64,000 nucleotides of DNA from Myxococcota bacterium (GTDB lineage Bacteria; Myxococcota_A; Polyangia; Nannocystales; Nannocystaceae), in contig JBCCHT010000009.1 of NCBI GenBank assembly GCA_039028615.1, positions 128,001 through 192,000 of the forward strand, written 5' to 3'. Of this stretch, positions 28,705 to 30,409 are shown one piece after another. A program made the translations under genes and the position numbers. A model generated the notes under the pieces. It was given only the letters and a program-made list of their open reading frames with translations, searched no databases and was not told where the DNA came from. Within the stretch, counting starts at the first letter, position 1. Every line of letters begins with the position of its first letter.

Positions 28705-28731
28705 TGTAAGAAACGAGGGGGGGCGTGCGTC
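28705..28731 (+). promoter_or_regulatory. ECF sigma-type promoter candidate TGTAAG-N17-CGTC
   Basis: TGTAAG 28705-28710, 17-nt spacer, CGTC 28728-28731, 46 bp upstream of the metallothionein-like start. Confidence 0.55.
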
Positions 28732-28777
28732 AGCACGAGCACGAAGGGCCGGGATGGCCCAAAACCGAGGAAACCCC

Positions 28778-28927
28778 ATGGAAGACACCTGCAAATGCCC
28801 GTGCACGCAATGCGAGAGCCATTGCTCCTGCCCCTGTTCGCCTCCCCAAGACGGCGGCTGTTGCTGCGGCGCGACGTGCACCTGCGGCGACAACTGCCCG
28901 TGCGATGAGTCCTGCGGCTGTCCTTGA
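28778..28927 (+). CDS. Metallothionein-like Cys-rich peptide (49 aa, 16 Cys)
   Basis: GAGGA RBS 6 nt before ATG; MEDTCKCPCTQCESHCSCPCSPPQDGGCCCGATCTCGDNCPCDESCGCP; no aromatic residues; all Cys codons TGC/TGT in frame. Confidence 0.85.
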   Translation: MEDTCKCPCTQCESHCSCPCSPPQDGGCCCGATCTCGDNCPCDESCGCP

Positions 28928-28954
28928 TGCCGTGAAGTACACTGATCGTCGTTG

Positions 28955-29521
28955 ATGGCCGTTCAGGCGAAAGTCCCCTCGAGGGAGACCCTGATCGCGG
29001 ATGCTCTTCGTGAGCACGCCGCCCAGTTCCGTGCGTTCGTCGGCGCGCGCGTGCCTCCGGGCGAGGTCGAGGACATCCTGCAGACCGCGGCTTTTCGCGC
29101 CGTCGAGCGCTCCGGGTCCCTGAAGGACTCGGAGCGTCTCCTGCCGTGGCTGTACCGGCTGCATCGCAACATCATCGTCGACACCATGCGCCGACGAGCG
29201 AGCCGCGAGCGCGTGGTCGACCCCCATGCGGTGGCGCCCGAGCCCTCGGCCCAGCCCTCCGAAGACCCGTGTCACTGCGCCCTCGTGCTGGCCCGGCAGC
29301 TGAGCCCGGCCTACGCGTCGATGCTGTCGCTGGTGGACGCGGGAGATGCTTCGGTGGCGGAGGCCGCCGAGGCGCTGGGAATCTCCACCAACAATGCCGC
29401 CGTTCGTCTTCATCGTGCACGCAAGGCCTTGCGAAAAGCGATGCTCGAGCACTGCGGCGTACGCAGCCCGAGCGAGTGCGCCGACTGTCGCTGCGCATTC
29501 GAAGGTTGCTGCGCGATGTGA
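28955..29521 (+). CDS. CorE-like ECF sigma factor with CxC linker and C-terminal Cys-rich domain
   Basis: EDILQ..WLYRLHRN.IVD (sigma2), PCHC linker, AEALGISTNNAAVRLHRARKAL (sigma4), HCGVRSPSECADCRCAFEGCC tail. Confidence 0.88.
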   Translation: MAVQAKVPSRETLIADALREHAAQFRAFVGARVPPGEVEDILQTAAFRAVERSGSLKDSERLLPWLYRLHRNIIVDTMRRRASRERVVDPHAVAPEPSAQPSEDPCHCALVLARQLSPAYASMLSLVDAGDASVAEAAEALGISTNNAAVRLHRARKALRKAMLEHCGVRSPSECADCRCAFEGCCAM

Positions 29522-29578: not shown

Positions 29579-30409
29579 GTGCTATGGGATGACGTCGAGA
29601 TGGCGAAGTTCAACGTCTGTGCCCGGCGGATTCTCGTGGGCACGGCCGTCGCCAGCAGCTACGACTGGATCGACTTTCACCGCTGCGTGGAGGGCCTCGC
29701 CCGCCTGACCGGAGAGCCCTTCACGGCCGTCTTTGCTCGGCTGGAGAAGCAGCACGGCTTCGGTCGTCGCCCCGGTAGCTGGCCGGACGGGAGCACGCTG
29801 CGGGCGGCGACCCGGCAGCTGGTCGAAGAGCGCGAGGCCTGGCTGGCTCGTTACCGTGCCTTCGTCGAGCAACGTCGTCGCGAGAAGAAACAGGGCCTCC
29901 GCCACCGTCGCCGCGAGCCCCTCGAGGAGCTGGAGGCCAGTCGACGCCAGCATGCGGCGTTTCGGCCCCGGCTCGGCTACTGGGGCTGGGCTCGGCTCCG
30001 CGAGGGGCTCGGCACGGTCGTCCCTCACCAGGACTCGCGGCTCCGCTTTCCGATCGTGCGCGGCGGCGGCCTGAGGGTCTGTCTCGATCTGCGCCGTCAC
30101 CCGGAGCCGGCCCTCGATCGAAGCGCGTTCGAGGGACTCGAAGGGGCGCTGGGGAGGACCGAGCTCCGCTCGCGGGTGCTGGTGGTCGTCGCCACGGCGA
30201 AGATTGCTGCGGCCTGGCTGGAGAACCCCGGCGGCCCCGAGCTGCGACGTGCACTGAAGCTGGGGCGGCGGCTCGGCGGTTTTCGTCGCGAGATCTGGCT
30301 GGCCCATCGCACGCCGGCTCACGCGGCCGAGCGCTGGCCCGCGGTGAGCGATGAACTTCGAGCCATCATCGACGGCGAGGGCTGGACGTTGCGGGCGATC
30401 CGGCTATAG
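29579..30409 (+). CDS. Hypothetical protein
   Basis: 276-aa ORF with GC3-rich codons; no motif recognised; start may be 29600. Confidence 0.6.
   Translation: MLWDDVEMAKFNVCARRILVGTAVASSYDWIDFHRCVEGLARLTGEPFTAVFARLEKQHGFGRRPGSWPDGSTLRAATRQLVEEREAWLARYRAFVEQRRREKKQGLRHRRREPLEELEASRRQHAAFRPRLGYWGWARLREGLGTVVPHQDSRLRFPIVRGGGLRVCLDLRRHPEPALDRSAFEGLEGALGRTELRSRVLVVVATAKIAAAWLENPGGPELRRALKLGRRLGGFRREIWLAHRTPAHAAERWPAVSDELRAIIDGEGWTLRAIRL

What the first reader, a model, noticed from the sequence alone, without database searches (positions are those of the whole stretch)
28705..29521. Candidate self-contained metal-response circuit: ECF promoter, metallothionein, CorE-like sigma factor
Seen: 27 bp after the MT-like stop begins an ECF sigma with a CxC linker (PCHC) between sigma2 and sigma4 and a 6-Cys tail (HCG-x6-CxDCxC-x4-CC). 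No recognisable anti-sigma gene is adjacent. Known: Myxococcus xanthus CorE and CorE2 have this CxC plus Cys-rich tail, act without an anti-sigma and are switched directly by metals (Cu for CorE, Cd/Zn for CorE2); their described targets are mainly exporters and oxidases. Inference: here the sigma would induce itself plus a cytoplasmic metal sponge that strips its activating metal, a negative-feedback loop in which the MT works as a chemical anti-sigma. I do not recall this pairing being described.
Basis: partly seen in the sequence, partly recalled or inferred. Interest (0 to 1): 0.85.

Follow-up and report, generated by a model that had tools for sequence, protein, structure and literature searches.

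The report
Metallothionein wired to metal-sensing sigma factor
A tiny unnamed gene for a 49-residue peptide that is one-third cysteine sits with a cysteine-tailed sigma factor behind one conserved promoter motif in all close relatives that could be checked, and the pair likely forms a two-gene circuit in which metal switches the sigma on and the peptide it likely induces would soak up the metal and switch it off again.

Summary
Confirmed. Window 28705-29521 holds a promoter motif (TGTAAG-N17-CGTCA), a 49-aa, 16-Cys ORF (28778-28927) and, 27 nt later, an ECF sigma with a CxC linker and a 6-Cys tail. Among 36 close sigma homologues with enough upstream DNA (window included), 36 carry the promoter. 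35 carry the intact peptide and one a TGA-interrupted copy. 0 of 66 distant ECFs have either. The peptide is under purifying selection (0 of 140 Cys codons lost) and matches no Pfam, NCBIfam or PDB family. The promoter is the only strong copy in this 12-Mb genome, and the same motif precedes copper-ATPase-like genes beside CorE-type sigmas. This subclade lacks the Cys that switches CorE off (0 of 116) and adds a terminal CC. Best reading (0.58): a metal-activated sigma induces itself weakly and a metallothionein strongly, and the metallothionein drains the metal. Metal binding, co-transcription and feedback are untested. The metal is unresolved, though neighbouring genes lean to zinc. The pairing was not found in the papers searched, and the ECF238 classification states no conserved promoter or context. 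This scan noted similar modules earlier in other genomes. New variant of a known kind.

The parts
28705..28710 (+). -35 element TGTAAG of the predicted ECF promoter
   Evidence: TGTAA invariant in 33 of 33 aligned sites, sixth base G 23 / T 10; only match to TGTAAK-N16/17-CGTCW in the genome
28728..28732 (+). -10 element CGTCA, 17 nt after the -35 hexamer
   Evidence: CGTC invariant in 33 of 33 sites; leave-one-out matrix scores this site 34.1 bits, next best in the genome 21.2
28767..28771 (+). Shine-Dalgarno-like GAGGA before the peptide gene
   Evidence: sequence; SD-like word before 36 of 38 peptide genes but only 5 of 38 sigma genes
28778..28927 (+). metallothionein-like ORF, 49 aa, 16 Cys, 1 His, CCCG core; unnamed family
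   Evidence: 12 invariant Cys in 34 aligned members; 44 TGC/TGT swaps and 0 Cys lost in 140 codons, pooled pN/pS 0.34; no Pfam, NCBIfam or PDB match
28928..28954 (+). 27-nt spacer with no SD and no stable fold
   Evidence: gaps 4-30 nt in 36 of 38 loci; fold z -0.54; no terminator-like site
28955..29521 (+). ECF sigma factor, CorE-like (ECF44/ECF238-like), 188 aa
   Evidence: AlphaFold2 model mean pLDDT 80.8, fold matches are ECF sigmas
29270..29278 (+). CxC linker motif C106-H-C108
   Evidence: CxC in the linker region of 119 of 120 homologues; essential in CorE and CorE2 (PMC4937300)
29450..29512 (+). C-terminal Cys-rich domain H-C-G-V-x5-C-x2-C-x-C-x4-C-C; lacks the CorE C184-equivalent, adds terminal CC
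   Evidence: position-4 Cys 0 of 116, CC 114 of 116; spacing of CorE Cys from PMC3107203
29515..29600 (+). stable predicted RNA hairpins right after the sigma stop, no U-tract; possible 3' end of the transcript
   Evidence: z -3.40, 0 of 200 shuffles, one of six stretches folded; not checked for conservation

Best explanation
A CorE-like sigma factor and a 16-cysteine peptide gene share one conserved promoter motif, and most likely a soft metal ion (zinc/cadmium somewhat more likely than copper) activates the sigma, which likely transcribes both genes, after which the peptide is predicted to bind the metal as a metallothionein and would so switch the sigma off again. Shown here: gene order, the conserved promoter motif, its uniqueness in this genome, selection on the peptide, a strong ribosome-binding site on the peptide but not on the sigma, and loss of the CorE off-switch cysteine in this subclade. 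Inferred, with rough odds: the sigma reads this promoter (0.9); metal bound to the CxC and tail activates it without a protein anti-sigma, as in CorE and CorE2 (0.8); the peptide binds metal in thiolate clusters (0.9); the peptide is made in excess over the sigma and lowers free metal enough to end the response (0.75-0.8). The result would be a short positive loop (self-induction) capped by a negative loop (the sponge). Having lost CorE's built-in off cysteine, this subclade would rely on that external sink. The steps are not independent, so the overall confidence is a judgement, not their product.
For: Linkage: 35 of 36 close homologue loci have the intact peptide upstream, and the 36th has a TGA-interrupted copy. 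Of 7 further short loci, 3 have the full peptide, 2 a partial one at the contig edge, and 2 have no upstream DNA. The 36 loci form 25 clusters at 70% sigma identity, with G+C 0.54-0.72. Sources label homologues Myxococcota, Actinomycetota, Pseudomonadota and Acidobacteriota, and loci with the peptide lie within 96-98% of proteins labelled Actinomycetota and Myxococcota. Searching from the peptide side gave 5 of 61 related genomes, all beside this sigma (all five were in the query alignment), and 11 of 401 phylum genomes, 9 beside a CorE-like sigma, 3 of those not in the query. Promoter: 36 of 36 vs 0 of 66 controls. Beside CorE-type sigmas the same motif, mostly with a 16-nt spacer, precedes proteins with YHS/CPMHP/GMxCxxC motifs of copper ATPases and chaperones in 18 of 75 loci (labels recalled from motifs, not scanned). 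That is the type of the known CorE regulon (PMC3107203). It is the sole site in G000, G019 and G028, and the extra sites in G002, G024, G260 and G294 are no more than control counts and lead to no SD-led ORF. Peptide. Off-switch: CorE C184A is constitutive and loses the peak; that position is Cys in 0 of 116 close homologues and in 64 of 72 CorE-type ones. Metal context: 14 of 33 loci have a MerC-domain, CobW/ZigA-like, ZnuA/AztC-like, ZIP, MerR or ArsR gene among the nearest called neighbours, and none of 93 neighbours matched a P1B-ATPase or multicopper oxidase family.
Against: Nothing functional was measured. The window's own neighbours are not metal genes. CorE2's Cd/Zn-determining Cys174 position is not Cys in any of 116 homologues, which by the published rule points to copper and conflicts with the zinc-type neighbours. 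CorE is only partly autoregulated and CorE2 not at all. The link between the lost off-switch Cys and the peptide is not clean. 15 of 60 lower-scoring loci have an upstream Cys-rich peptide, several with the Cys intact. L125, L171 and L188 lack that Cys and show no adjacent peptide. Two peptide copies stand alone. The subclade's branch has SH-aLRT 90 on a quick tree, below the tool's 95 mark. A second, SigZ-type Cys-tailed sigma in this genome (C7) could in principle read the promoter. Relatives are not independent samples.
Confidence: 0.58

Rival explanations
1. The peptide is simply a target: a metal store or detoxifier (for example banking surplus zinc, as BmtA does in marine Synechococcus), and its effect back on the sigma is negligible.
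For: Two solo copies behind the same promoter, one beside an AztD-like zinc chaperone gene. Zinc-uptake-type neighbours. In other loci the promoter drives exporter-like genes instead. Zur-activated metallothionein banks zinc in Synechococcus WH8102 (PMC9337993 abstract).
Against: If metal activates the sigma and the peptide binds that metal, some feedback follows from mass action. The coupling is near-obligatory in this subclade and goes with loss of the off-switch Cys.
Confidence: 0.2
2. The peptide contacts the sigma directly, either as a physical anti-sigma or metal stripper, or in the opposite sense as a chaperone that delivers metal and activates it.
For: Gaps of 4-30 nt and a sigma gene without its own SD suggest coupled synthesis. 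The conserved CCCG core and 12 fixed Cys go beyond a generic Cys-rich peptide. One database protein (P0127) joins the peptide to a sigma-like tail (may be an assembly or calling error).
Against: Solo copies exist. Apart from Cys and one Gly nothing is conserved in the peptide, so there is no obvious binding surface. CorE and CorE2 work with no such partner. The SD pattern suggests a large excess of peptide, not 1:1.
Confidence: 0.12
3. The signal is thiol oxidation or an electrophile or metalloid (arsenite, mercury), not free Zn or Cu, and the peptide is a thiol buffer.
For: Pyridine nucleotide-disulphide oxidoreductase, MerC-domain, MerR and ArsR neighbours in some loci. The second Cys-tailed sigma in this genome follows a glyoxalase-like gene with a CC-rich tail (label recalled).
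Against: The closest characterised relatives respond to metals. The sister group's promoter drives metal-ATPase-like genes. CxC/CCC spacing is typical of metal-thiolate clusters (PMC13578184).
Confidence: 0.07
4. The small ORF is a leader peptide that tunes sigma translation to cysteine supply; the peptide itself has no function.
For: It is Cys-codon-rich, directly upstream, and the sigma lacks its own SD.
Against: Exact Cys spacing is conserved rather than a run of codons. Solo copies and copies downstream of a sigma exist. No attenuator-like fold at the junction.
Confidence: 0.03

Closest known systems
CorE and CorE2 of Myxococcus xanthus (former ECF44, now in or beside ECF238; PMC3107203, PMC4937300)
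   Same: sigma2+sigma4 ECF with CxC linker and C-terminal Cys-rich domain; no anti-sigma gene; Cys at the positions of CorE C181, C189 (essential), C192 and C194; an ECF promoter of similar spacing (the CorE paper describes AAC at -35 and G at -10, 16-18 nt apart)
   Different: no Cys at CorE C184 (its off switch) or at CorE2 C174 (its Cd/Zn determinant); extra terminal CC; the predicted regulon is only a metallothionein-like gene plus itself, not ATPases, oxidases or a CDF; the promoter lies in front of the sigma's own operon in 36 of 36 loci; spacer mostly 17 nt vs mostly 16 nt in CorE-type loci
SigZ / ECF238 (Casas-Pastor et al., PMC7826278 supplement)
   Same: short Cys-rich C-terminal extension, no anti-sigma; SigZ models are the best named match
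   Different: score far below the SigZ cut-off; the supplement states that ECF238 promoter motifs are not conserved, the group is not autoregulated, and context is conserved only in subgroup s2, whereas this subclade has a near-invariant promoter and neighbour
Bacterial metallothioneins SmtA/BmtA, MymT, Pseudomonas MTs
   Same: about 50 aa, Cys-rich with CxC and CC motifs, no signal peptide by inspection
   Different: 33% Cys against about 16% given for canonical bacterial MTs (PMC13578184); no aromatic residues; no family match; predicted control by a metal-binding sigma instead of SmtB/ArsR-type repressors, RicR or Zur
Bufferins under SigF/NrsF in Caulobacter (PMC11626156)
   Same: small Cys-containing metal-binding peptides induced through an ECF sigma
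   Different: bufferins have signal peptides, are modified by MNIO enzymes and use a true anti-sigma; here there is no signal peptide, no modifying enzyme and no anti-sigma

Membership tests
ECF (group 4) sigma factor | sigma2 and sigma4 only, small size | tested here: met
   188 aa; TIGR02937 above cut-off; Pfam r4_2 above, r2 at 23.4 vs 24; fold matches ECF sigmas
CorE-like / former ECF44 | CxC motif between sigma2 and sigma4 | tested here: met
   C106/C108; 119 of 120 homologues
CorE-like / former ECF44 | C-terminal Cys-rich domain | tested here: met
   six Cys; four align by spacing with CorE C181, C189, C192, C194
CorE-like / former ECF44 | canonical CorE spacing C-x2-C-x4-C-x2-C-x-C (a common trait; the review says the Cys distribution varies) | tested here: not met
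   second Cys absent in 116 of 116 close homologues, present in 64 of 72 CorE-type ones; filed as a CorE-like sister subclade, not as a CorE orthologue
CorE-like / former ECF44 | no co-encoded anti-sigma factor | tested here: met
   no anti-sigma family among window neighbours or among 93 neighbours of 33 loci; an unrecognised one cannot be excluded
CorE-like / former ECF44 | activity depends on bound metal | not testable with these tools
   needs reporter or in vitro assay
ECF238 (2021 classification) | score against the group's own HMMs | not testable with these tools
   models not available; neither CorE nor CorE2 sequence was in my tree
SigZ equivalog (TIGR02959) | score above curated cut-off | tested here: not met
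   80.4 vs 168.65 bits
Metallothionein superfamily | low molecular weight, high Cys in CxC/CxxC/CC motifs | tested here: met
   49 aa, 16 Cys, 12 invariant; nearest named Atlas clusters are eukaryotic metallothioneins at 0.82-0.85, leads only
Metallothionein superfamily | binds several metal ions in thiolate clusters | not testable with these tools
   needs purified peptide
Described bacterial MT families (SmtA/BmtA, MymT) | match to the family profile or a solved structure | tested here: not met
   0 families for 34 of 34 members in Pfam and NCBIfam at E<=1, 0 PDB matches; HMMER's bias filter can suppress Cys-rich hits

The most novel reading that the evidence does not exclude
A widespread subclade of metal-sensing sigma factors has given up CorE's built-in off-switch cysteine and outsourced shut-off to a dedicated, previously unnamed metallothionein family that takes the metal from the sigma. 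This would be a two-gene, 0.8-kb, self-limiting metal circuit in which a metallothionein does the job of an anti-sigma factor.
Probability: 0.3. Interest if true: 0.85.

Novelty: new variant of a known kind. Interest (0 to 1): 0.64.

Why it matters
Characterised bacterial metallothioneins are few (PMC13578184), and the regulators seen in the papers I read are repressors or Zur. This adds an unnamed family with eukaryote-like cysteine density and a different predicted regulator. It gives an explicit promoter consensus (TGTAA[GT]-N16/17-CGTC[AT]) for CorE-like sigmas, a group published as lacking conserved promoters, which makes their regulons searchable. How a directly metal-activated sigma is turned off when the metal has one redox state is open in the CorE2 work, and this cassette makes it testable with two short genes. 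If it works as proposed it is also a compact part for metal biosensors.

Tried and rejected
Void results: my reference for the peptide was one base out of frame (protein 2). Those were redone in frame (profile search); the word-index homologue search for the peptide was not repeated. One search was also out of frame; the correct reading of L123 is. The single scan of the GTDB collection returned only distant ECFs, which then served as the control set. A search for long fused forms found none at E<=1e-30 (weak evidence; it covered only 358-2000 aa, so a 240-aa fusion would have been in the range, where the seven longest top hits I read carried no peptide). No RNA holder was listed, which says nothing about expression. 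The complex prediction of sigma with peptide was not available, so direct binding is untested. I considered a one-base error at the peptide's end, because a shifted frame would overlap the sigma start. Rejected: gaps of 27-30 nt and peptides ending at CGCP occur in relatives and a public contig agrees. The in-frame TGAs flagged in sigma hits are natural stops. Folds after the L123 TGAs show no special stability. A Zur-like palindrome (recalled motif) occurred in 5 of 39 loci vs 0 of 66 controls; too weak to use. The careful tree did not finish; only a quick tree was read, leaving out loci with under 400 nt upstream and two broken or truncated sigmas. The exact window peptide is not in the 15-billion-protein collection, and 5 of 9 relatives looked up are named only 'hypothetical protein', the other 4 unnamed. 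Paper searches returned nothing relevant.

Full report
Observation. The sequence shows, on the + strand, TGTAAG (28705) - 17 nt - CGTCA (28728), a GAGGA ribosome-binding word, a 49-codon ORF (28778-28927; 16 Cys, 1 His, no aromatic residue), a 27-nt gap and a 188-aa ORF (28955-29521). The latter is an ECF sigma (TIGR02937 above cut-off; best named model SigZ at 80 bits, cut-off 169) with C106-H-C108 in the linker and six Cys in the tail. An AlphaFold2 model (mean pLDDT 80.8) matches ECF sigma structures; no listed PDB match carries a CorE or SigZ name. The flanking genes are peptidase M1, DUF6702, an ORF without family and CotH.

Conservation of the pair. I collected homologous loci from 61 related genomes, JGI metagenomes (best 80 of 562 kept) and 401 genomes of the phylum (30 loci fetched), and scored them with a profile of 48 of the 120 listed homologues. 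Loci scoring 200 or more (43 distinct sigmas, window included) share the tail H-C-G-V-x5-C-x2-C-x-C-x4-C-C, in a few cases without the final CC. Of the 36 with at least 400 nt upstream, 35 have the intact Cys-rich ORF directly upstream and 36 have the promoter motif. The 36th, L123, has the ORF with two in-frame TGA at invariant Cys positions. Of the 7 shorter loci, 3 have the full ORF, 2 a part at the contig edge and 2 no upstream DNA. In 66 distant ECF loci neither the motif nor a Cys-rich ORF within 160 nt was found; three such loci had chance Cys-rich frames further away. The 36 loci fall into 25 clusters at 70% identity, and G+C spans 0.54-0.72. Among 75 lower-scoring sigmas (mostly CorE-type), 60 had enough DNA: 15 have a Cys-rich ORF upstream, 3 downstream, and 24 have the promoter within 450 nt (one of the 15, L115, is a broken member of the close group). 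On a quick tree the 35 close sigmas included form one group (SH-aLRT 90, not starred), apart from the CorE-type group.

Search from the peptide side. A profile of 34 peptides (12 invariant Cys, CCCG core) hit 5 of 61 related genomes, each time beside this sigma (all five were in the profile). It hit 11 of 401 phylum genomes. Nine of the 11 lie next to a CorE-like sigma (3 of them new to the profile; one, G427, has a deviant -10 element). Two stand alone, and both keep the promoter. G382 has a CorE-like sigma on another contig, and G357 only SigZ-type ones at the sensitivity used. The family matches nothing in Pfam, NCBIfam or PDB. It has 22 representatives at 50% identity, and where named it is 'hypothetical protein'. 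The Atlas gives unnamed clusters at 0.88-0.91 and eukaryotic metallothioneins at 0.82-0.85, leads only. It is a real gene: over 11 chosen equal-length pairs, 140 Cys codons show 44 TGC/TGT swaps and no loss, pooled pN/pS is 0.34, and an SD-like word precedes 36 of 38 peptide genes but only 5 of 38 sigma genes, with gaps of 4-30 nt in 36 of 38.

The promoter. TGTAA and CGTC are invariant in 33 aligned sites. A matrix built without the window's site scores it 34.1 bits, the next site in the 12.3-Mb genome 21.2. The exact pattern occurs once in G000, G019 and G028. G002 and G260 have one extra site and G024 and G294 four, within the range of the reversed-pattern controls, and none leads to an SD-led ORF. 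The loose core pattern alone is at chance level in this genome (15 found, 15.3 expected), so the claim rests on position and conservation. Beside CorE-type sigmas the same motif, mostly with a 16-nt spacer, precedes proteins with copper-ATPase and chaperone motifs in 18 of 75 loci (labels recalled from motifs). That is the kind of regulon shown for CorE, whose paper describes AAC at -35 and G at -10 (PMC3107203; its Figure S3 is an image I could not see, so my consensus may overlap theirs). This internal control makes it likely that the motif is read by these sigmas. No terminator-like site or stable fold lies between the two genes, whereas stable hairpins follow the sigma stop.

The tail. By spacing, CorE C181, C184, C189, C192, C194 are positions 1, 4, 9, 12, 14. 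C184A makes CorE constitutive and removes the peak; C189 is needed for activation. In CorE2, Cys174 (position 5) sets Cd/Zn specificity. In 116 of the 120 listed homologues whose tail could be parsed, positions 1, 9, 12 and 14 are always Cys, positions 4 and 5 never, and 114 add CC at 19-20. In 72 of 75 parsed lower-scoring sigmas position 4 is Cys in 64. So the subclade that always carries the peptide lacks CorE's main off residue. The link is imperfect: L125, L171 and L188 lack the Cys and have no adjacent peptide, and several CorE-type loci have both.

Which metal. 14 of 33 close loci have a MerC-domain (6), CobW-type (4), ZnuA, ZIP, MerR or ArsR gene among the nearest called neighbours, and none of 93 neighbours matched a P1B-ATPase or multicopper oxidase family (crude gene calling, short flanks, no matched control). 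ZigA, AztC and AztD are the best NCBIfam matches for four such genes, all below cut-off. This leans to zinc. The lack of the position-5 Cys leans to copper by the published rule. My estimate (judgement): Zn/Cd 0.5, Cu 0.3, other 0.2.

Mechanism. Most likely metal binds the CxC and tail and activates the sigma. The sigma then transcribes peptide and sigma from the one promoter, the peptide is translated strongly and the sigma weakly, and the peptide binds the metal and ends the response (0.58). Rivals: plain target or store with negligible feedback (0.20), direct partner (0.12), thiol or metalloid signal (0.07), leader peptide (0.03). A SigZ-type sigma on contig C7 is a possible second reader of the promoter; no such motif was found near it. 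Direct binding between peptide and sigma could not be modelled.

Literature. What I saw: PMC4937300 (parts 1 and 4 of 7, Discussion part 1, passages; supplements searched except file 1, which may hold the alignment figure; Table S4 part 1 of 3 read; 0 hits for 'metallothionein' in text and searched supplements); PMC3107203, PMC6851896, PMC8999054 and bioRxiv 10.1101/2019.12.11.873521 (passages; 0 hits for 'metallothionein'); PMC7826278 (supplement passages, file cut when stored; ECF238 'promoter motifs are not conserved', 'not autoregulated'); PMC10141476, PMC13578184 and PMC11626156 (passages); PMC9337993 (abstract). Searches listed no paper that, by title or abstract start, pairs a metallothionein with a CorE-like sigma. 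The library omits most subscription papers, so this is 'not found', not 'absent'.

Earlier notes of this scan. Seven notes from other genomes describe the same kind of module with peptides of 28-56 residues; none resembles this peptide by sequence. They are unchecked AI notes seen after my reading was formed and are not counted as support.

Verdict. Both parts are of known kinds; the wiring, the peptide family, the tail variant and the explicit promoter consensus were not found described. New variant of a known kind; interest 0.64.

Noticed in passing
L123:325-483 and 1041-1043: The peptide has two in-frame TGA at invariant Cys positions, and the sigma ends G-Y-TGA where relatives have G-C-C: three Cys-to-TGA changes in 1.2 kb. 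Either selenocysteine or decay; single case, no special hairpin seen.
   Followed up: partly
L081, L085, L086: A different Cys-rich small ORF (47-57 aa) lies about 30 nt downstream of CorE-type sigmas in one genus; no promoter motif was found upstream.
   Followed up: partly
L077-L196 (CorE-type loci): The TGTAA[GTC]-N16-CGTC motif precedes copper-ATPase-like, HMA-like and cupredoxin-like genes; likely the CorE-family target promoter.
   Followed up: partly
L226 (G382) and L231 (G357): Stand-alone peptide genes with the promoter; L226 lies between folE and an AztD-like gene.
   Followed up: yes
G000:C7:4000-5430: A second Cys-tailed, SigZ-type sigma directly after a glyoxalase-like gene with CC-rich tail (label recalled); possibly an arsenic or cadmium module.
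   Followed up: partly
P0127: 144-aa database protein that starts with the peptide and ends with a sigma-like tail; natural fusion or assembly error.
   Followed up: no
L176 and L141/L143/L164/L165: Other Cys-rich peptides upstream of CorE-type sigmas, from 30-31 aa (8-9 Cys) to an 86-aa repeat form with 24 Cys.
   Followed up: no
G352 (L170, L215, L217): One genome holds both the 17-nt-spacer peptide-sigma cassette and a 16-nt-spacer CorE-type peptide-sigma pair plus a P1B-ATPase-like target, a natural test of cross-talk.
   Followed up: partly
window 29579-30409: 276-aa ORF without Pfam or NCBIfam match starts 57 nt after the sigma stop, inside the predicted hairpins; not conserved next to the cassette in the loci examined.
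   Followed up: no
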